Shown here: positions 9,502-54,970 of the stretch, in pieces
Position numbering within the stretch: the stretch's first letter is position 1
How the letters are laid out: each line of letters opens with the position of its first letter
Virus record (IMG/VR): IMGVR_UViG_3300030339_000006
Reading direction: 5' to 3' (one strand)
DNA: 64,000 nucleotides
From: a virus
Notes under the pieces: generated by a model
Seen by the model: the letters and a program-made list of their open reading frames with translations, nothing else
Database searches by the model: none
What the model was told of the DNA's origin: nothing
Program-made: the position numbers and the translations under genes

Positions 9502-10139
9502 AACCCATAATCCGACTCCCACACTCCCTTCTTGATTCGACCGGGGAGAAGTGGGTCTATGCTCAACACTTCCAAGTCCCGGACGATCCGAAGTTCTACT
9601 GGGTCGGCGGGGTACCTCTTCTGCGGGTTGAAGATCTTCCAGAGTTCATCATCAGACATGGCCTGGAAACGGCCTGTGCGGGCCTCTACGAGACGATCGT
9701 AGGGGACTGGTATGATTGGTTCGATTCCACTTCCAAAACGCCTGAGGGGCCTGCCAGGCGTTCTAACAGAGAGTCAACCAAAGTCGTTGATTCAGCAATG
9801 GCTCGCTTCGAGTCAATTTACCGTCAGCGGAAGGGCACGGAGTATGCCACTACCGTCGATTATCTTTACACACACTTCATGCAGATCATGGGTTTGGAAC
9901 GCAACGTGGAATGGGATGACCTCTCACAGTGGGAGCTCAGCCTATTGACAACAGTACAGATGGCCTTTGCAGGCATCATGCTGGCTTATCTCGACGGTCC
10001 CATGGAGATGGAGCTGGATGAAGTAATCCCAGTCACGATGTCGAAGTTGCACGCGGTCTTCAGTGGCGTGGCACTCTCAATGTCGTATGCAGTTGACAAC
10101 TTAACAGAAAACCTCAATGAATTTACGGAGAAATACTAA
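9498..10139 (+). CDS. Hypothetical protein
   Basis: 213-aa coupled ORF. Confidence 0.7.
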   Translation: MKPIIRLPHSLLDSTGEKWVYAQHFQVPDDPKFYWVGGVPLLRVEDLPEFIIRHGLETACAGLYETIVGDWYDWFDSTSKTPEGPARRSNRESTKVVDSAMARFESIYRQRKGTEYATTVDYLYTHFMQIMGLERNVEWDDLSQWELSLLTTVQMAFAGIMLAYLDGPMEMELDEVIPVTMSKLHAVFSGVALSMSYAVDNLTENLNEFTEKY

Positions 10140-22144: not shown

Positions 22145-22430
22145 TCTGGAACAAGCCGTGCATGATGGATTCGCTATTCTTACGGCCGCTATTGCTAAAG
22201 AGCGTAGCCAAGCAGTTGTTCAACGAGAGACTGACCAGCTCATGGTCAAGGTCATGACAGAGATCGACAAGGCCACCACTAAGGGCGCCTTCCGGATTGC
22301 CATGGAGATGGCTGCTGTTCCTGCGAATGTCTGTCGGCAGGCCGTTAAGGTACTGAAGGAAAAGGGTTTTGTTACTGACGTCAACGGGGCGGTACTCCGG
22401 GTCTCTTGGGGTGGAATGGATGATGCATAA
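22134..22430 (+). CDS. Small protein (paralogue family 4)
   Basis: LKEKGFVT...LRVSW. Confidence 0.7.
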   Translation: MKNDLEQAVHDGFAILTAAIAKERSQAVVQRETDQLMVKVMTEIDKATTKGAFRIAMEMAAVPANVCRQAVKVLKEKGFVTDVNGAVLRVSWGGMDDA

Positions 22431-22809
22431 GGATCTGCATCAGTACGAAAGCCCAGAGGCCTTCTTGGTGGAGTTCATTCCATACTTGGAGGCAACGCGG
22501 GAAGAAGACTGGGTGCAGGATGTCGTGCGGCGAGGTGGGCAGAACTGTTTGATGGGGCATTTCATCAACTTCTGTGAACACGACCTGGATGATAACGTTG
22601 CACCCTCTTGGGATTGGTTCGAGCAGATGGTCGCTACACCCTACATGGTGTACCCGGTCAATGACGGTACTGACCCCGATTATCCTCAGGGCTCCGCCCG
22701 TGAACGTTGTATTGCGTTCATGAAGGATATCCTCTCTGGTACCAAACCAAATACCCTCCGGGCAATGCAAGAAGATTACGAGGAGTGGAAATGCAGAAAT
22801 CACATGTAG
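22420..22809 (+). CDS. Hypothetical protein
   Basis: CLMGH...VNDG...YPQ motifs typical of phage hypotheticals. Confidence 0.7.
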   Translation: MMHKDLHQYESPEAFLVEFIPYLEATREEDWVQDVVRRGGQNCLMGHFINFCEHDLDDNVAPSWDWFEQMVATPYMVYPVNDGTDPDYPQGSARERCIAFMKDILSGTKPNTLRAMQEDYEEWKCRNHM

Positions 22810-26571: not shown

Positions 26572-26647
26572 AAGACAAGTAGCTCAACTGGTTAGAGCAT
26601 AATCATACCCGATTAGTGTTGGGGGTTCGAGTCCCCCCTGTCTTAGC
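26572..26647 (+). pseudogene. Degenerate tRNA (6-nt anticodon loop, no CCA)
   Basis: Intact D arm (tagctcaactggttagagc) and T arm; taatc-ataccc-gatta. Confidence 0.55.
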
Positions 26648-33945: not shown

Positions 33946-34124
33946 ACATCGAAGACCTCGTTAAATTTAAACAGATCGCCCGCCGCCTGCACACCCGTGG
34001 CGTGATCTCCCAGAACCTGTGCCTACGGATTCTCGGCCTGAAAGAACCGAAGTACCGCGTTCAGTCCTGGCTGATCTCTGCAGGATTTGCCCTGTGCAAA
34101 CTCGCTCTGAAGCACTCGAAATGA
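33942..34124 (+). CDS. Small hypothetical protein
   Basis: ATGA coupling on both sides. Confidence 0.6.
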   Translation: MNIEDLVKFKQIARRLHTRGVISQNLCLRILGLKEPKYRVQSWLISAGFALCKLALKHSK

Positions 34125-34414
34125 AGTATACCCGTAAGCCGTACGCAGTGGATGCTGTCCAGTTCAACGGACAGAATCACCTGAATATCTTCGAAGACTA
34201 CTGGCCGGACTGGATCCACCATGCCATAGCCTGCGGTGATGTACAGCTCTGCGGGGATTACTTTGAACTCTGGCGACCGGACCACACTTCCTGGGATCGC
34301 TTCGGGTTGGGCTGCTGGATCGTTCTGGACGACGGCGCCATTATTGGCGTCACCGCCGAAGAATTCTACCGGAGATACGATCGTGTCTACAATCGAAACG
34401 CCGATAATCGATAG
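34121..34414 (+). CDS. Conserved phage protein (RKP..V.AVQF family)
   Basis: MKYTRKPYAVDAVQFNG...F...Y. Confidence 0.7.
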   Translation: MKYTRKPYAVDAVQFNGQNHLNIFEDYWPDWIHHAIACGDVQLCGDYFELWRPDHTSWDRFGLGCWIVLDDGAIIGVTAEEFYRRYDRVYNRNADNR

Positions 34415-34637
34415 CGTATATACAATCAAAGTGACCCGAATCAAGGACTGGCATGCCCGTCTGTTCTTAAACGGGTTGCTGGTCGATGAAATGTCGTGTA
34501 AACTCCGTAGTGATATCGGATGGATCTGCCGTGAGATGATGCGGTGGGCCGATAAAATGGGAGGTGATAGTCATACCTCCAGTGCTCGCAGACGCCAAGG
34601 CCAAGCTGTGGGTAAAGTGAAATACCTGAGGAAATAA
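34383..34637 (+). CDS. Hypothetical protein
   Basis: GTG start after GGAG; IGWICREMMRW. Confidence 0.6.
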   Translation: MSTIETPIIDSVYTIKVTRIKDWHARLFLNGLLVDEMSCKLRSDIGWICREMMRWADKMGGDSHTSSARRRQGQAVGKVKYLRK

Positions 34638-34639
34638 CC

Positions 34640-34978
34640 ATGTTATAGACCAAACACTGGACCTACACGTTCGTTCGTACTGATCTGCCGCTCGAGCAGA
34701 TTCTCGTTCAATCCAACCACGCTTCCCACGAAGCCGCCCTGAAGTACCCCTACACCTCTGCTGAACCTAACTCGCTGATCGTCATTGGCGTGAAGAACCG
34801 TGCTGCCCTCGAAAAGGCCATGGCCCGCTTCGCTGCGTTCGACCCAACCCCTTTCTACGAGCCCGACTGGGAGTACGGCCTGACCGCCTTCACCACCCGT
34901 CCAGTGACCGAAGAAGAGCGTGCTGAATTCCGTAAGTATCAACTCTTCCGGAGGTCACATGTACGCAACCAATTTTGA
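34640..34978 (+). CDS. Pth2-like peptidyl-tRNA hydrolase with in-frame amber codon at position 3
   Basis: GAGG RBS, ATG TTA TAG then in-frame YTFVRTDL...VQSNHA...LIVIGV...FYEPD...LTAF. Confidence 0.8.
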
Positions 34979-35492
34979 TGACCTTCAGACCCGGATGGCC
35001 GCCACTGAGCAGACCGCCGGCGTCTCCGTTCTGGAACACGGCCACAGCGTCCACCAGCGGTACCAGGAGCTCCTTCGGGAGCTCAACCAAGGCAAGGGCA
35101 ACCCGACACTCCAGAAGGTCTGGGAGAGCGTTAGAGAGCGTCTGATGGACCCCGATCTGATCTGGCGGTATCAGGTGTATCACGACTGTGGCAAACCGGC
35201 CTGTGCCCAGGACGGACACTTCCCAGATCACGCAGAGCACTCAGCGAATCAGTGGGCCCTACTCTTCCCGGAAGACCCGGTCGTCGCTGACTTGATGCGG
35301 ATGGACATGCAGTTCCACTTGACGAACGCCGAGGACGCCCGGTCCTTCTGGGCACACCCGCTGGCCCCGACCCTCTACGTCACAGCCTGGGCGGAGATTC
35401 TGTCAAATGCCAGCATGTTCGGCGGAGAAGACTCCACGTCCTTCAAGATTAAGCGTAAGAAGTTAGAGCGTGCCGGGCGGGCGCTGTGGTAA
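34959..35492 (+). CDS. HD-domain protein
   Basis: EHG...YHDCGKP...HFPDHA; GGAGG RBS; overlaps pth gene end. Confidence 0.8.
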   Translation: MYATNFDDLQTRMAATEQTAGVSVLEHGHSVHQRYQELLRELNQGKGNPTLQKVWESVRERLMDPDLIWRYQVYHDCGKPACAQDGHFPDHAEHSANQWALLFPEDPVVADLMRMDMQFHLTNAEDARSFWAHPLAPTLYVTAWAEILSNASMFGGEDSTSFKIKRKKLERAGRALW

Positions 35493-35519
35493 AATCCTGG
35501 TATTCACAGGAGAATTATC

Positions 35520-36200
35520 ATGGTCGAAAAGAGAGACAATTTTGAAAAAGGCGTAATTGGAGCCGTCGGGGGCACTGCTGCAGCCTCCGGAGTGGCACCT
35601 CGCTTGCTGGGGTATCACGTGGTCCGCCACGGCACGAGCAACGAGAACGCCGCAAAGATCAAGAAGGAAGGGTTTAACCCTAAGATGGGTGGCAAGGGTG
35701 GGGCGGGACAGCACGCGGCGACAGGTGACCGAGCGAAGAGGTTTAAGGAACAATCCCGAGGGAAGATTCACGTAACGAAAAACCCTTTGATCTCCCGTAT
35801 GTTCGCCGGGATAACGGAGAAGCGTAATCCTAATCCCGAATCTCTCGGTGACTTGGCCGGTGGTAAGGTTCTGAAAGCCCGCGTTACTGATCAACATTAC
35901 CGAACCATGCAGAAAGACCCTCACATGGGTGGCGGCAAGGCCACTGCAGCGACGACTCACCACAAGATTCCCTCACATCAGATTATCGGTGGGGCGGGGG
36001 ATAAGGGGGTCAAAGGTGTAGTTAATAAGAAGACGTTGGCGAAATACTACCGCAATAAGACGAATCACGGTCGTATCGGCAGAGGTATAGCTCTCGCGGG
36101 AGTCGCTGCCACCGGTGCTCACCAGGTCTATCAGTCCGTGAAGGAAGGATTGACCAAGAAGTCAGGATTGCAGATCCGGGCAGAAAGTTTGCTCCGGTAA
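35520..36200 (+). CDS. ADP-ribosyltransferase-fold protein, paralogue of 30032..30670
   Basis: RHGTSNENAAKIKKEGF...GKIHVT; colinear motifs with 30032 protein. Confidence 0.7.
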   Translation: MVEKRDNFEKGVIGAVGGTAAASGVAPRLLGYHVVRHGTSNENAAKIKKEGFNPKMGGKGGAGQHAATGDRAKRFKEQSRGKIHVTKNPLISRMFAGITEKRNPNPESLGDLAGGKVLKARVTDQHYRTMQKDPHMGGGKATAATTHHKIPSHQIIGGAGDKGVKGVVNKKTLAKYYRNKTNHGRIGRGIALAGVAATGAHQVYQSVKEGLTKKSGLQIRAESLLR

Positions 36201-36229
36201 TTGACAGGTCAAGGACGACCTGATATCTT
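36201..36229 (+). promoter_or_regulatory. Sigma70-like promoter directly upstream of suppressor tRNA
   Basis: TTGACA-17-TATCTT with TG extension. Confidence 0.65.
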
Positions 36230-36237
36230 ACAGACAT

Positions 36238-36313
36238 GCCTGAGTAGCTGAGCGGTTGTAGCGGGAGCCTCTAAAACTCTGATACGTCGGTTCGAATCCG
36301 ACCTCGGGCACCA
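36238..36313 (+). tRNA. Amber suppressor tRNA (CTA anticodon)
   Basis: gcctgag/ctcgggc acceptor, ct-CTA-aa loop (CTA at 36271-36273), canonical T-arm, A73-CCA. Confidence 0.85.
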
Positions 36314-36314
36314 C

Positions 36315-36408
36315 TGATGTGTAGCTTAACGTAAAAGTGCTACGGAATCGGGGACTACCCCCTTTGACAATGGCGGATGTCCGGCACGTAAACCGGACCA
36401 CATCACCA
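36315..36408 (+). ncRNA. tRNA-like RNA with expanded anticodon region
   Basis: tgatgtg/cacatca acceptor, TAGCT D start, gtccgg/ccggac stem, CCA. Confidence 0.55.
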
Positions 36409-36410
36409 CC

Positions 36411-36486
36411 GGGTGCATAGCTCAGTTGGCAGAGCGGCGGACTCTTAATCCGTAGGTCGTAGGTTCGAACCCTACTGCACCCACCA
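36411..36486 (+). tRNA. tRNA-Lys(CTT)
   Basis: Canonical cloverleaf, CCA. Confidence 0.92.
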
Positions 36487-36546
36487 CTTCCCCTTTTGCG
36501 AATTCCTTGGTATAATAGACATACCGTCCATACCAGGAGTTTTTCC

Positions 36547-36741
36547 ATGAAAGATATTATCGGTAATACCCTCGAAATCGGCGACCGCGTCGTGACCACT
36601 GTCAGTGGCTACGAAGAATTACAGGTCCGCTACGTTCACAGCTTCACCCCTAAGAAAGTCCGTCTGTCCGCCCACCCGAACCTTGAGTTCACTTCCGATC
36701 TTAAATCCCCTCGTCAACTCGTGAAGGTGCCGCATGTTTGA
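36547..36741 (+). CDS. Small SH3/KOW-like protein (paralogue family 5)
   Basis: MKDIIGNTLEIGDRVV. Confidence 0.75.
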   Translation: MKDIIGNTLEIGDRVVTTVSGYEELQVRYVHSFTPKKVRLSAHPNLEFTSDLKSPRQLVKVPHV

Positions 36742-36928
36742 TTTCCGTAAGCAGGAACTGGCGGTTGGGGACACGGTAGCCCTTTTTTGGTGCGACGGCC
36801 AGTTGGCCGAAGGGGTCATCGTGCAGATTCGGGGCAACTGGGCCAAACTCGACGTTACTTATCACGGCTCGGTCTCTCGCAGTAAGTGGAAGGCCGGCTA
36901 CACCATGGTTAAACTGGAGGCAAAATGA
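36734..36928 (+). CDS. Paralogue family 5
   Basis: MFDFRKQELAVGDTVA. Confidence 0.75.
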   Translation: MFDFRKQELAVGDTVALFWCDGQLAEGVIVQIRGNWAKLDVTYHGSVSRSKWKAGYTMVKLEAK

Positions 36929-37122
36929 AAGATCAATTCGGTCGTGAGCTCAAACTCGGCGACATGGTCGTCTTCTGCGGGATTCGTCACCGCTCGGCGT
37001 ACCTCTACCGCGGCATCATTGAGAAAGTCGAAGGCAAGTCCCTGACGATCTTCTGTGGTGACCGCGAGTCTTCCCGTAAACGCTTCAACCGCCACTGTGA
37101 GGACGTTTCCCTTGATCGATAG
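36925..37122 (+). CDS. Paralogue family 5
   Basis: MKDQFGRELKLGDMVV. Confidence 0.75.
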   Translation: MKDQFGRELKLGDMVVFCGIRHRSAYLYRGIIEKVEGKSLTIFCGDRESSRKRFNRHCEDVSLDR

Positions 37123-37312
37123 ATTCGGCAATACTCTGTCCGTCGGTGACACGGTGGTTTACTTCTCAACGGGCTATGCCCCGACTGCCCGCGTTGGCAT
37201 GATCATCGAGTTCGCGAGAGGGTCAGTGAAGATCAAGACCACTTCTCATCGTGAAGTCCTTCGGTCGGCAGGCTCGCTCATCCACTACACAGGAATCGCT
37301 AATGGTCTTTAA
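37112..37312 (+). CDS. Paralogue family 5
   Basis: TTG start; IDRFGNTLSVGDTVV. Confidence 0.7.
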   Translation: MIDRFGNTLSVGDTVVYFSTGYAPTARVGMIIEFARGSVKIKTTSHREVLRSAGSLIHYTGIANGL

Positions 37313-37517
37313 CGGCGTCGACATCCTCGATAAATCCGAGTTGGTCAAAGGCCGGTCCTACAAGGGCGACTGCCGGAACGCCAGTGAGGCCGTCTGGAAC
37401 GGGCGTCTGTTTGTTTACAAGCGGACCAAGTTCGGTGACACCTACGATGAAACCATCGAACACCCGGAAGATGACTGCGGGTATGATCTCTTCCTCCCCC
37501 GGAGGGATTTGAATTGA
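37302..37517 (+). CDS. Conserved phage hypothetical protein
   Basis: YKGDCRNASEAVWNG..F.YKRTKFG. Confidence 0.7.
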   Translation: MVFNGVDILDKSELVKGRSYKGDCRNASEAVWNGRLFVYKRTKFGDTYDETIEHPEDDCGYDLFLPRRDLN

Positions 37518-37711
37518 AAGACTTAACCGGAATGGAGATTCACGTCGGTGATACCGTGGTGGCCAGCCTAGATGGCACCGACTCCCGGATTCGCCTTTGC
37601 ACCGTCATCGGCTTCACCGCCCAGAAAGTTAGAGTTCAATCCCGTTGGAGGGGCAATGAGCGTGGCGAGCTGAAAGACCCTGGTAACCTCATTATCATGA
37701 GGGCAATGTGA
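37514..37711 (+). CDS. Paralogue family 5
   Basis: KDLTGMEIHVGDTVV. Confidence 0.75.
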   Translation: MKDLTGMEIHVGDTVVASLDGTDSRIRLCTVIGFTAQKVRVQSRWRGNERGELKDPGNLIIMRAM

Positions 37712-37775
37712 GTACATTCTTGCTGTGGCTTAGCCTGCAGAAACACCCTAAACCTTTACTCAATAAGGAAACACC

Positions 37776-37961
37776 ATGTTTGATGCTCGAGGAAATCCCC
37801 TGTCGTTGGCCGACTCTGTCGTCTTCGCGAAAAATGACGGGGAGTTAGGCTTCGGCCACATTACCGGTTTTGACGAGTATGGTCACTACGCCTTTATCCA
37901 CACGGAGAAAGACCGCAAGACCAAAAAGAATAACCGTGAGCTACTGAAGGTGCCGAAATGA
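37776..37961 (+). CDS. Paralogue family 5
   Basis: MFDARGNPLSLADSVV. Confidence 0.75.
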   Translation: MFDARGNPLSLADSVVFAKNDGELGFGHITGFDEYGHYAFIHTEKDRKTKKNNRELLKVPK

Positions 37962-38167
37962 AGGACATTAATGGCAATGAAGTCCACGTCGGTTCCGTTG
38001 TCGTGACCGGCAGATCGGGAGGGTCCATCAGCCTGGGTTTCGGTATCGTGACGTCCATCGGTAAAAAGATGGTCACGTTAGACCGACTACCCCCAACAGA
38101 CTCCCGTTACCGCCACTGCGTTTACCCCGGATCTCGCCGTTACGGAGATGATGTAGTCGTTCTATAA
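37958..38167 (+). CDS. Paralogue family 5
   Basis: MKDINGNEVHVGSVVV. Confidence 0.75.
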   Translation: MKDINGNEVHVGSVVVTGRSGGSISLGFGIVTSIGKKMVTLDRLPPTDSRYRHCVYPGSRRYGDDVVVL

Positions 38168-48870: not shown

Positions 48871-50090
48871 TGAATATTCCTGAGTACTACCTGAACCTCC
48901 TGGGCGGCTGGAACGGCGCCGACGATGAGACCCACTACGGGGCCCGCCCTATCCTGGCCGCCATCATGTCCCACTACAAAGTCCGTGCGACGACGAAAAC
49001 CGACCTGGTCCGTGAGATGGGTCTCGGGGCTACTCCGGGCTTCCTGCTCGGTCAGCGTGAGACCACGATGTCGTCCTACTACGTGAAGAACTACGAGCAC
49101 CGCCGCTTCTGTTCTCGCTTGGTGGAATTCAAGAAGGTCGGCCGTACGTTTAACTACCTGCTCAACTGGGACGTGGTCAGCGACACCGACTTCAACATGG
49201 GTTTCTATTCGCCGAACTGGTCGTCAATCGCTCAGGTATATTGGTGGGGCCGCTTGATGTTCGGTCACAACGTGATTCCGGAGAGCGTGATTACCGTTCT
49301 GCGTTCCCGTATGGTCGTCAAGAATGACCGTCGGGACGAGTACCGCAACGCGTACAACCCGTTTGTCGTGCAGTTCCTTCGGGATAATGACCTGATGCCG
49401 ACGGGGAATCATCACCCGGAAGCACGGGCCGGTAACTCGGTGCTGGACCGTGAAATCCCTTACTGGGAAGTCATGCTGTCCTTCGCATGCTCGATTGCCA
49501 CTACGAACAACGTCGCCGGGTACTACTCGTCACTGGCGTCCCTCTCAAGAGTTCTTATCCCGCGTCCCGTCGATCATGATTCAGCTTCCGGTATGAAGAT
49601 TGACTGCGTACAGGATGCCGAACGCAAATTAGATCCGTACTTCAAGTGGTGGGATCCTTCGAGTAGCCGTCCGCTGAACGGTTCGTGGCAGTACGGTATC
49701 GGTCAGCCGTCGATTGAGCGGGCACTGCGTCCTAATGGCTTCCCATCGAATGTCCGTGAGATGATCCCACTGTTTATGGGCCACCTTCACATGACCCCTC
49801 TAGAGGAGCAGCGTAACAACTACAAGACACCGTACGTTGGCTACGACGTTAATATGTCCGGCCGTAATAAGTACGCGTATGCTCTTTCCTGCCTTCTGTA
49901 CGAATTCGGCCTGTTGGTGAACAACACAGCTCTCTTCGACCTGTCCATCCTGAAGCGGATTCGTGAAGAGAAAGAGTGGGATGATGCAGGTATCATTGCC
50001 GCGGCAGAGGGTCTATCCATGCTGGGTATCAAGAACCACACCATCCATCGTATCGTCGGGTTTAATATCGAGCGTCAGAATCAGGTATAA
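48867..50090 (+). CDS. Large hypothetical protein
   Basis: 407-aa ORF coupled to DHFR; no recognised motif. Confidence 0.75.
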   Translation: MMNIPEYYLNLLGGWNGADDETHYGARPILAAIMSHYKVRATTKTDLVREMGLGATPGFLLGQRETTMSSYYVKNYEHRRFCSRLVEFKKVGRTFNYLLNWDVVSDTDFNMGFYSPNWSSIAQVYWWGRLMFGHNVIPESVITVLRSRMVVKNDRRDEYRNAYNPFVVQFLRDNDLMPTGNHHPEARAGNSVLDREIPYWEVMLSFACSIATTNNVAGYYSSLASLSRVLIPRPVDHDSASGMKIDCVQDAERKLDPYFKWWDPSSSRPLNGSWQYGIGQPSIERALRPNGFPSNVREMIPLFMGHLHMTPLEEQRNNYKTPYVGYDVNMSGRNKYAYALSCLLYEFGLLVNNTALFDLSILKRIREEKEWDDAGIIAAAEGLSMLGIKNHTIHRIVGFNIERQNQV

Positions 50091-54169: not shown

Positions 54170-54970
54170 ATGAACTATCATCAGGGTCAAATTGACGCAC
54201 GCGTTGCTCTGCTGGATGTTATCTATAAGGTGGATCCCCTGATCGCTGGGGATATCATCAATAAAGCCGAAATGGCCGTCACCGGGACGCCGGAGTATCT
54301 GCAGGGTTTCAGTGAGTACTGTGACAGCAAGTGGCGTGAACTCAAACTGGATGGGCCGCGGGTAACCCACGACGAACTGGTGAAGGACTTCGGTATCGCC
54401 GGTACGCACCGCCGTCTGTTCAATGCTCGCCGCCTGGCTCAGGATTCCCATGAAGGGCAGTGGCGTAAAGGAGCGGAAGAGCCGTACTTCAATCACGTCT
54501 ATCGCGTGTCCCAGTCGGTGGCAAACTACCTGGCCTTGAAGGGAATGACCTTCGCCTTCGAGCGGCACTCCGTGGACATGATGATTGCGGCGTTGTTGCA
54601 TGACGTGGTCGAGGACTGCGACGTTACGCTGGATGAAGTCCAGAGCCTGTTCGGCCTGCGGGTTCGTACCTGGGTAGATGGCTTGACGCACATCATGGTT
54701 GGTGTCAACCGGGCGGACCGGGAGTATAAGACGCGTCAGAAACTGATGGCGGCGCCGTGGGAGGTGAAGTTGATCAAGTGCTTTGACATCTATGATAACG
54801 CGAAGAGCATGGCGATCGATGATCCCGGCTTCGGCGTTCTGTGGTATCAGGAGAAGTTGGAACTGGTGAGAGAAGGGTTCCTGGCAGAAATGCCCGCGTT
54901 AGTGCGAGATCTCGTCCAGGGAACCCTGACTATGGGTCACGCTCTTAGCTTAGCACTAACTAAGAAATAG
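54170..54970 (+). CDS. SpoT/Mesh1-like HD hydrolase (small alarmone hydrolase-like)
   Basis: HEGQWRK...PY.NH...AALLHDVVED...FG..V...V.GLT...KLIK..D..DN. Confidence 0.85.
   Translation: MNYHQGQIDARVALLDVIYKVDPLIAGDIINKAEMAVTGTPEYLQGFSEYCDSKWRELKLDGPRVTHDELVKDFGIAGTHRRLFNARRLAQDSHEGQWRKGAEEPYFNHVYRVSQSVANYLALKGMTFAFERHSVDMMIAALLHDVVEDCDVTLDEVQSLFGLRVRTWVDGLTHIMVGVNRADREYKTRQKLMAAPWEVKLIKCFDIYDNAKSMAIDDPGFGVLWYQEKLELVREGFLAEMPALVRDLVQGTLTMGHALSLALTKK

What the first reader, a model, noticed from the sequence alone, without database searches (positions are those of the whole stretch)
34640..36313. Amber-gated peptidyl-tRNA hydrolase gene next to a phage amber-suppressor tRNA
Seen: after a GAGG RBS the gene reads ATG TTA TAG (34640-34648). 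It then continues in frame, without another stop, as TKHWTYTFVRTDLPLEQILVQSNHASHEAA...LIVIGV...FYEPD...LTAF (112 codons in total). There is no alternative start between the TAG and the VRxDL/QxxHA motifs, so the ORF track only caught a fragment. A tRNA with a CUA anticodon lies 1.6 kb downstream, first behind its own sigma70 promoter. Knowledge: VRxDL...Q..HA...EP...T is the Pth2/PTRHD1 fold signature. Two-codon minigenes such as lambda bar (AUG AUA UAA) cause peptidyl-tRNA drop-off and need Pth. Inference: full-length Pth is made only when UAG is read through, by the suppressor tRNA or when RF1 is limiting. Otherwise the gene is a Met-Leu minigene. This would be a switch coupling termination status or phage tRNA expression to peptidyl-tRNA recycling, with a co-translated HD-domain protein (34959) downstream.
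Basis: partly seen in the sequence, partly recalled or inferred. Interest (0 to 1): 0.92.

Follow-up and report, generated by a model that had tools for sequence, protein, structure and literature searches.

The report
Amber-gated phage tRNA-enzyme operon
A peat-soil phage opens a small tRNA-hydrolase-like gene with ATG-TTA-TAG and carries its own UAG-reading tRNA 1.3 kb downstream; about 25 distantly related large phages keep the same early stop together with such a tRNA, so the gene is most likely made only when that tRNA overrides the stop, which gives these "orphan" phage suppressor tRNAs a natural target.

Summary
Window 34640-34648 reads ATG TTA TAG behind a GAGG ribosome-binding site. 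The frame then stays open for 109 codons, with no ATG/GTG/TTG before codon 47 after the TAG. A tRNA-CUA lies at 36238-36313.

The TAG is not an error. Contigs from four other peat runs are identical there. Nearly every phage homologue has SD-ATG-(0-3 codons)-TAG-purine at the same place, including cultured phages Arash, GAP32, CBB, BF, fHe-Yen9-04, ME3, RsoM2USA and XacN1.

All 21 assessable leader-bearing lineages carry a tRNA-CUA, often within 700 bp. Homologues without the TAG mostly lack one (Fisher p=3e-4).

The overlapping downstream HD-domain gene carries its own in-frame TAGs in several lineages. No other conserved gene within 10 kb does.

The protein has a Pth2 fold. Its partner resembles the HD domain of class-II CCA-adding enzymes.

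Best reading: a tRNA-3'-end enzyme operon whose translation is licensed by the phage's own amber suppressor. This is comparative inference only. I saw no expression, charging or readthrough data.

I found no published description; the XacN1 paper reports finding no target for its suppressor tRNAs. This scan has already reported the same cassette on other DNA (at least 47 genomes).

The parts
34628..34631 (+). Shine-Dalgarno GAGG, 8 nt before the ATG of the leader
   Evidence: Read directly. Comparable GGAG/GAGG/AGGA motifs precede the leader ATG in the homologues.
34640..34648 (+). Leader ATG TTA TAG: start codon, a Leu codon and the in-frame amber codon, followed by A (TAG-A)
   Evidence: ATG-(0-3 codons)-TAG-purine is conserved in about 25 lineages. 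Close relatives have CTG instead of TTA, a synonymous Leu change. Four other metagenome runs are identical here.
34640..34978 (+). Pth2-fold gene: 112 codons including the TAG, with stop TGA at 34976-34978 and a second TGA directly after
   Evidence: Translation. PF01981 PTH2 is hit by 28 of 71 family members. The family profile hits PDB Pth2 chains. The AF2 model has pLDDT 95.4 with strand beta-1 at residues 4-10 after the TAG. Foldseek gives TM 0.65-0.74 to archaeal Pth2 and human Bit1.
34959..35492 (+). HD-domain gene (177 aa) overlapping the Pth2-fold gene by 20 nt, with SD GGAGG at 34950-34954
   Evidence: It matches phrog_14850 at E=5e-55. H27, H75-D76, H91, D116 and H120 are invariant. 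AF2 pLDDT is 95.5. The best fold match is class-II CCA-adding enzyme 3wfo_A residues 250-444, Z 14.0. It is fused to the Pth2-like domain in XacN1. It carries in-frame TAGs in other lineages but none in this window.
35520..36200 (+). 226-aa Gly-rich gene between the operon and the tRNA; not shown to belong to the module
   Evidence: ORF list. No Pfam or PHROG hit. Its positional counterpart in Arash, Gp082, was detected in virion mass spectrometry.
36201..36229 (+). Promoter-like site TTGACA-17-TATCTT with TG, directly before the tRNA-CUA
   Evidence: 10 of 12 matches. This is a consensus match only; 3 sites were found against 1.9 expected.
36238..36313 (+). tRNA with anticodon CUA (amber suppressor), A73, encoded CCA, short variable arm
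   Evidence: ARAGORN. Rfam RF00005 55.3 bits. It is not a close copy of any other window tRNA and has no E. coli match. Counterparts exist in all 21 assessable leader-bearing lineages.

Best explanation
Window 34628-35492 is a two-gene operon for enzymes that probably act on the 3' end of tRNA. The first gene has a Pth2 fold and the second an HD phosphohydrolase fold. Translation starts at ATG 34640 and meets UAG at codon 3. Release factor 1 would normally end translation there after a dipeptide. Full-length protein is made only when the phage's own tRNA-CUA (36238-36313) decodes the UAG. Because the HD gene overlaps the first gene, it may share the gate through translational coupling. The operon is therefore a dedicated natural target of the phage's amber suppressor, in a phage that otherwise uses TAG as a stop. 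Shown here: the conserved leader, its frame, its linkage to tRNA-CUA genes, the module-specific TAGs, and the folds. Inferred: that the tRNA is expressed, charged and reads the TAG, that the proteins act on tRNA, and why the gate exists.
For: 1. The TAG is conserved in frame. SD-ATG-(0-3 codons)-TAG precedes the domain in Arash, fHe-Yen9-04, GAP32, ME3, RsoM2USA and LR756511, in 7 metagenome lineages and in 30 of 35 IMG/VR loci, with protein identity down to 28%. Database 'full-length' proteins translate only with TAG=Q.
2. XacN1 has the same leader (ATG AAG TAG ACC) in front of an HD+Pth2 fusion gene.
3. The HD gene has independent in-frame TAGs at four different positions in other lineages.
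4. Among 274 conserved frames within 10 kb in 25 representative loci, TAGs spanned by alignments from three or more lineages occur only in these two genes.
5. By 80%-identity clusters, leader with tRNA-CUA 21, leader without 0, no leader with 1, no leader without 4; Fisher p=3.3e-4. The tRNA lies 60-700 bp upstream on the same strand in 11 clusters.
6. Every conserved in-frame TAG is followed by a purine. To my knowledge this is the context best suppressed in E. coli (Bossi 1983; Miller and Albertini 1983).
7. Strand beta-1 starts 3 residues after the TAG, so any downstream start would truncate the fold.
8. The L051 phage genome is rated complete, and a pattern search finds no tRNA-CUA in it. 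Its copy of the gene is out of frame behind the TAG.
9. The Leu codon of the leader changes synonymously (TTA to CTG) among close relatives.
Against: Nothing here is experimental. No RNA run holds this phage, and expression, charging identity and readthrough are all unknown. One complete 358-kb genome (L048) keeps the leader, but the anticodon-loop pattern search found no tRNA-CUA in it. L070 has a tRNA-CUA 9.6 kb away but an ordinary start. TAG also ends ordinary genes in this window (34414, 37122, 22809, 54970), so a strong suppressor should be costly. In L036 and L059 an ATG directly follows the TAG, which would allow suppressor-independent initiation there. The co-occurrence count rests on flanks of about 10 kb and on a few whole genomes, not on a full census.
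Confidence: 0.78

Rival explanations
1. Readthrough does not depend on the phage tRNA. The UAG at codon 3 is read by host near-cognate tRNAs when RF1 is limiting or termination is slow. The two-codon leader acts as a minigene whose peptidyl-tRNA drop-off reports the need for a hydrolase. This is the RF1/minigene branch of the first reader's proposal.
For: The leader is always very short, 0-3 codons, which a simple gate does not require. L048 keeps the leader with no detectable tRNA-CUA. The gated protein has the Pth2 fold. Established knowledge, not tested here: minigenes such as lambda bar are toxic when Pth is limiting.
Against: All 21 assessable leader-bearing lineages carry a tRNA-CUA, often directly adjacent; that linkage would be unexplained. 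The HD gene carries TAGs at codons 43-54, where no minigene logic applies. The early position can also be explained because the N-terminal tail is the only unconserved stretch of this compact domain.
Confidence: 0.1
2. The ATG-NNN-TAG is a tiny upstream ORF, and the enzyme is made by re-initiation or non-canonical initiation just after the TAG, without decoding it.
For: The codon after the TAG is ATT, ATC or ATG in many lineages, and ATG in L036 and L059.
Against: In this window and many others the next codons are ACC, AAC, AAT, ACT, ACA, GAA or GCG, none of them a start codon. The TAG is always locked in frame with both the ATG and the domain. The internal TAGs of the HD gene lie inside its conserved fold.
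Confidence: 0.05
3. The phage uses genetic code 15 (TAG = Gln) throughout or in a block, and this gene is simply one recoded gene.
For: A gene caller chose TAG=Q for short contigs carrying homologues. Recoded phages with tRNA-CUA are known (bioRxiv 10.1101/2021.08.26.457843).
Against: TAG ends ordinary genes in the window, one of them two genes upstream at 34414. No other conserved frame within 10 kb in 25 lineages has a supported in-frame TAG. The XacN1 authors found nothing behind that phage's 18 amber stops (PMC5852040).
Confidence: 0.03
4. The gene is a pseudogene, or the TAG is a sequencing or assembly error.
For: Annotators truncated or skipped the gene in every public record examined.
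Against: The same TAG occurs in about 25 lineages and in four other assemblies of this phage. The rest of the frame is intact and highly conserved.
Confidence: 0.01

Closest known systems
Stop-codon-recoded phages with phage suppressor tRNAs (TAG read as Gln, 'code 15'; crAss-like and Lak phages)
   Same: A phage-encoded tRNA-CUA together with in-frame TAGs in phage genes. Regulation of a gene set by the timing of suppressor expression has been proposed for these phages (bioRxiv 10.1101/2021.08.26.457843, listed).
   Different: Here TAG remains an ordinary stop. The supported in-frame TAGs are confined to one two-gene operon. In the first gene the TAG always sits at codons 2-5. The tRNA is physically linked to its target.
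prfB (RF2) autoregulation through an early in-frame UGA
   Same: An early in-frame stop codon in a translation-factor gene makes its synthesis depend on how that stop is handled. This comparison rests on established knowledge and was not tested here.
   Different: prfB uses a +1 frameshift and senses its own product. Here the frame is unchanged across the TAG and the decoder is a dedicated tRNA. No feedback has been shown.
Archaeal/eukaryotic peptidyl-tRNA hydrolase Pth2 (PF01981; 2zv3, 3erj, 1xty, human Bit1 1q7s)
   Same: The fold matches (TM 0.65-0.74), and so do the RxDL and Q..HA motifs.
   Different: The window protein itself scores no Pfam hit. The loop carrying the 'GK' lysine of Pth2 is a gap in the family profile. 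The family has its own invariant EPD and YG-T motifs. It is always paired with an HD protein.
HD domain of class-II CCA-adding enzymes and of bacterial GlyRS beta subunit
   Same: These are the best structural matches of the partner protein: 3wfo_A residues 250-444, Z 14.0, rmsd 3.2 over 158 residues, and 8ie2_H, Z 11.3. The HD metal-binding residues are invariant.
   Different: The partner is a stand-alone 177-aa protein with no nucleotidyltransferase head and a conserved basic MFGG..SFKIKxKK tail. Its activity is unknown.
Synthetic suppressor-tRNA feed-forward gates (PMC7969014)
   Same: An amber codon in the target plus a co-expressed suppressor tRNA forms an AND gate that removes leaky expression (abstract listed).
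   Different: That system is engineered. This would be a natural counterpart, and its regulatory logic is untested.

Membership tests
Pth2 (PF01981) peptidyl-tRNA hydrolase | Pth2 alpha/beta fold | tested here: met
   AF2 model pLDDT 95.4. Foldseek top hits are 2zv3, 3erj, 1q7s, 1wn2 and 1xty, with TM 0.65-0.74 and probability 1.00.
Pth2 (PF01981) peptidyl-tRNA hydrolase | Significant match to the family's sequence model | tested here: inconclusive
   The window protein has no Pfam hit at E<=0.1. Among family members 28 of 71 hit PF01981, best E 1.3e-7. The family profile hits PDB Pth2 chains at 1.9e-6 and 3e-3.
Pth2 (PF01981) peptidyl-tRNA hydrolase | Catalytic residues; from memory K18, D86 and T90 of S. 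solfataricus Pth2 | tested here: inconclusive
   In both printed alignments the profile has a 2-residue gap where the Pth2 chains carry the 'GK' lysine. An acidic EPD motif lies near the Pth2 Asp. No structure-based residue mapping was done.
Pth2 (PF01981) peptidyl-tRNA hydrolase | Hydrolysis of peptidyl-tRNA | not testable with these tools
   Needs an enzyme assay or pth(ts) complementation.
HD-domain metal-dependent phosphohydrolase | H...HD...H...D metal-binding residues and the all-helical HD fold | tested here: met
   H27, H75, D76, H91, D116 and H120 are invariant in 17 sequences. VIA-align gives Z 14.0 to 3wfo_A and Z 8-11 to many HD enzymes. No Pfam hit.
Functional amber-suppressor tRNA | Intact cloverleaf with anticodon CUA | tested here: met
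   ARAGORN and RF00005 at 55.3 bits. Counterparts in other phages score 60-71 bits.
Functional amber-suppressor tRNA | Expressed, aminoacylated and decoding UAG in vivo | not testable with these tools
   No RNA run is listed. Charging identity cannot be inferred: there is no close relative among the window's tRNAs or in E. coli.
Code-15 (TAG=Gln) recoded phage | TAG is not used as a stop and is widespread in frame within genes | tested here: not met
   TAG ends 13 of 104 long ORFs, among them 34118-34414 and 36925-37122. Supported in-frame TAGs occur only in the two module genes.

The most novel reading that the evidence does not exclude
The tRNA-CUA and the TAGs form a self-contained lock and key, and the suppressor's main or only purpose is to license this operon. 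UAG reading has no host competitor tRNA, so it reports purely on whether the phage's own tRNA production, maturation and charging are running. Enzymes that strip or repair tRNA 3' ends would then be made only after that checkpoint. Alternatively, the enzymes act back on the suppressor's own aminoacyl or peptidyl form, giving a feedback governor of suppression.
Probability: 0.2. Interest if true: 0.9.

Novelty: new variant of a known kind. Interest (0 to 1): 0.78.

Why it matters
Many large phages that use the standard code carry an amber-suppressor tRNA with no known purpose. [quoted passage not shown] A conserved and physically linked target makes that question directly testable in cultured systems such as Arash on Salmonella, GAP32, CBB, ME3, RsoM2USA and XacN1.

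It would also be a natural single-operon use of stop-codon suppression as a gene switch, an intermediate between the standard code and full TAG recoding.

There is a practical side too. The gene is truncated or missing in every public annotation examined, and the HD gene is split in the GAP32-type jumbo phages, so annotation pipelines systematically miss this module.

Tried and rejected
- **Complex prediction** of the HD-like with the Pth2-like protein gave no verdict.
- **RNA evidence:** no RNA holder is listed for this phage, so expression could not be examined.
- **Arash virion mass spectrometry** (PMC10585845) lists Gp082 but not Gp083 or Gp084. This is uninformative, because it is a virion preparation and Gp084 is annotated only as a 50-aa fragment.
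- **tRNA identity:** there is no match to E. coli genomes and no close paralogue among the window's 24 tRNAs. The inserted amino acid stays unknown.
- **Leader RNA structure:** folding of 34605-34705 is no better than shuffles (z = -0.25), so I found no sign of a structured readthrough element.
- **First conservation screen** for in-frame TAGs was swamped by off-frame and antisense alignments between close relatives. It was replaced by the best-frame filter.
- **Bacterial genomes:** only one relative was found, in Paraburkholderia, with an ordinary ATG start. That scan used narrow patterns.
- **Megablast** of the region against cultured phages found only a tRNA-Lys match.
- **Not done:** the converse census, asking whether every standard-code phage with a tRNA-CUA has this module, could not be run on whole collections.
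Full report
**1. The observation**

The sequence is as described. GAGG lies at 34628-34631 and ATG TTA TAG at 34640-34648. With TAG read as sense, the frame runs 112 codons to a tandem TGA TGA at 34976-34981. The nearest upstream in-frame stop is TAA at 34613. No ATG, GTG or TTG occurs between the TAG and GTG 34790, codon 47 after it.

ARAGORN finds 24 tRNAs in the window. One has anticodon CUA, at 36238-36313. It scores 55.3 bits against Rfam tRNA and follows a TTGACA-17-TATCTT promoter-like site. A 177-aa gene starts at ATG 34959 behind GGAGG and overlaps the first gene by 20 nt.

No whole genome is held for this window. The DNA occurs in many peat metagenome runs. Contigs of four runs from different studies show no differing base across the leader.

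**2. The TAG is conserved, not private**

A tblastn search of cultured phages found 28 records. The gene is truncated or not annotated in every record examined. The DNA explains why.

| Phage or locus | Leader and first codons after it |
|---|---|
| Window | ATG TTA TAG ACC |
| Arash | ATG CTG TAG AAC |
| fHe-Yen9-04 | ATG TCT CAC TAG ATT |
| GAP32 | ATG GCA CAA TAG AAT |
| ME3 | ATG ACT TAG ATT |
| RsoM2USA | ATG TTG TAG ATT |
| LR756511 (595-kb uncultured phage) | ATG ACT CAC TAG GTT |
| XacN1 (leader before the HD+Pth2 fusion gene) | ATG AAG TAG ACC |

Seven further metagenome lineages show the same leader. The apparently full-length database proteins P0002 to P0004 translate only "with_TAG=Q". 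Thirty of 35 IMG/VR loci also have ATG-(0-3 codons)-TAG, with protein identity down to 28%.

XacN1 first looked like an exception because its domain is fused behind an HD-like part. The fusion gene itself starts with the leader, seven codons before the annotated start.

Within the Arash-like clade the leader's Leu codon differs synonymously, TTA against CTG.

**3. Linkage to tRNA-CUA**

Every leader-bearing phage that could be assessed has a tRNA-CUA. Arash's copy is annotated tRNA-Phe in its record.

Clustering at 80% identity gives 30 clusters. After adding the distant tRNAs of RsoM2USA, LR756511 and XacN1, and setting aside four short contigs, the counts are as follows.

| | tRNA-CUA found | No tRNA-CUA found |
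|---|---|---|
| Leader present | 21 | 0 |
| No leader | 1 | 4 |

Fisher's exact test gives p = 3.3e-4.

- In 11 clusters the tRNA lies 60-700 bp upstream on the same strand.
- In four clusters, this window among them, it lies 0.1-3.3 kb downstream.
- Homologues with ordinary starts (L066, L067, Paraburkholderia L086) have no tRNA-CUA nearby.

Three cases do not fit cleanly:

- **L051.** The genome is rated complete and the pattern search finds no tRNA-CUA in it. The domain is one base out of frame behind the TAG.
- **L048.** The leader is present, but the pattern search found no tRNA-CUA in its 358-kb genome.
- **L070.** It has a tRNA-CUA 9.6 kb away but an ordinary start.

**4. The gate belongs to the operon**

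An HD-like gene homologous to window 34959-35492 follows the Pth2-like gene in most lineages, overlapping its end. It carries its own in-frame TAG at several positions:

- codon 47 in the GAP32/CBB/BF/fHe-Yen9-04 group
- codon 43 in L029
- codons 51-54 in L053, L055, L057 and L059
- codon 4 in L056

These sites fall in variable loops of an otherwise strongly conserved protein. The window's own HD gene has none.

I then applied a best-frame conservation filter to 25 representative loci. It kept 274 conserved frames. TAGs spanned by alignments from three or more lineages occurred only in these two genes, with 4-14 supporting lineages each.

Every conserved in-frame TAG is followed by a purine, mostly A. 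To my knowledge this is the context best suppressed in E. coli (Bossi 1983; Miller and Albertini 1983); I did not check those papers here.

In this window TAG also ends ordinary genes: 34118-34414 (TAG-C), 36925-37122, 22369-22809 and 54170-54970 (TAG TGA). The phage therefore uses the standard code. The 34640 leader is the only site of its kind in the 64 kb.

**5. What the proteins are**

*Pth2-fold protein.*
- The 109-aa protein has no Pfam hit by itself.
- Its family is large, 542 representative clusters. Of 71 members tested, 28 hit PF01981 PTH2, and the family profile finds PDB Pth2 chains.
- The AF2 model (pLDDT 95.4) matches archaeal Pth2 and human Bit1 at TM 0.65-0.74.
- Strand beta-1 begins three residues after the TAG. 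Initiation further downstream would break the fold.
- The loop holding the 'GK' lysine of Pth2 is a gap in this family, so peptidyl-tRNA hydrolase activity is plausible but not assured.

*HD partner.*
- The model has pLDDT 95.5, and the HD metal-binding residues are invariant.
- Its best structural match is residues 250-444 of 3wfo_A, at Z 14.0. This entry belongs to the 3wfo-3wfs series, and 3wfr of that series is called a class-II bacterial CCA-adding enzyme in bioRxiv 10.1101/2021.08.20.456953.
- The next match is the HD domain of GlyRS beta (Z 11.3), followed by generic HD hydrolases.

Both proteins therefore point to the tRNA 3' end. The XacN1 fusion supports a joint function.

**6. Mechanism and rivals**

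The most economical reading is as follows. Ribosomes start at ATG 34640. RF1 ends translation at codon 3 unless the phage's tRNA-CUA decodes the UAG. Operon output then follows suppressor activity. This is inference from comparative data.

Rivals, with my odds:
- **Host-driven readthrough or a minigene drop-off sensor (0.10).** This leaves the tRNA linkage and the internal HD-gene TAGs unexplained.
- **Re-initiation after a tiny upstream ORF (0.05).** It fails where no start-like codon follows the TAG, as in this window.
- **Genome-wide code 15 (0.03).**
- **Pseudogene or error (0.01).** Contradicted by the conservation.

Why the gate exists is open. It could be a timer, a checkpoint on the phage's tRNA supply, or feedback on the suppressor. 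None of these was tested.

**7. Novelty**

I found no published description. The XacN1 paper reports suppressor tRNAs without identifiable targets after reading through the 18 annotated amber stops. The RsoM2USA paper names no target. A jumbo-phage review notes PTH2 genes in these phages but not the TAG.

This scan has already reported the same cassette on other DNA: 58 notes in at least 47 genomes. A later check there rated the observation as standing and the bold "self-contained switch" reading at about 20 in 100.

- the XacN1 fusion leader
- the multiple independent TAG sites in the HD gene
- the module-specificity test
- the purine rule
- the CCA-enzyme-like fold of the partner
- the exceptions L048, L051 and L070

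Noticed in passing
L039, L040, L043 (IMG/VR relatives), about 9935-10000; compare window 34422-34637: In three close relatives the upstream gene runs in the same frame straight into the leader, so ATG CTG TAG are its last codons and the TAG is also its stop. Readthrough there would also make an upstream-protein::Pth2-like fusion. In the window a TAA at 34635 and a frame offset separate the two genes.
   Followed up: partly
L068 9990-10500: The Pth2-like domain follows an in-frame TAG with no nearby ATG, behind a long open upstream frame. A tRNA-UUA (ochre-type anticodon) and a tRNA-CUA sit side by side 20-120 bp downstream. L040 also has a tRNA with anticodon UUA.
   Followed up: no
L051 9950-10010: ATG plus 9 codons, then TAG, then the domain one base out of frame (TAG G TGC ACT...). 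The phage genome is rated complete and a pattern search finds no tRNA-CUA in it. This could be decay after loss of the tRNA, an assembly indel, or a +1 shift at the stop.
   Followed up: partly
L074 (XacN1 record 36047-37200): XacN1 has two tandem tRNA-CUA genes in each terminal repeat. ARAGORN also calls a tmRNA-like gene (tag ANANTFDYALAA) about 1 kb downstream of them.
   Followed up: no
window 26572-26645: ARAGORN reports a tRNA-like gene with an undetermined two-base anticodon 'ac'. Earlier notes of this scan mention several CCA-ended tRNA mimics in this tRNA region.
   Followed up: no
window 36496-38167: A run of at least seven small paralogous genes of about 60-85 aa (MKD..G..L..GD.VV motif) lies just downstream of the tRNA-CUA and tRNA-Lys. 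One of them ends in TAG-A (37122).
   Followed up: no
L001 3810-3884 (Arash record 49176-49247): The GenBank record of phage Arash annotates its CUA-anticodon tRNA as tRNA-Phe, and the Pth2-like gene as a 50-aa fragment.
   Followed up: yes
L002/L003 1818-2384 (fHe-Yen9-04 g408-g409; GAP32_398 to GAP32_399): In the GAP32-type jumbo phages the HD-like gene is split by its codon-47 TAG into a 46-aa ORF plus further small ORFs, one of them labelled a putative membrane protein.
   Followed up: partly
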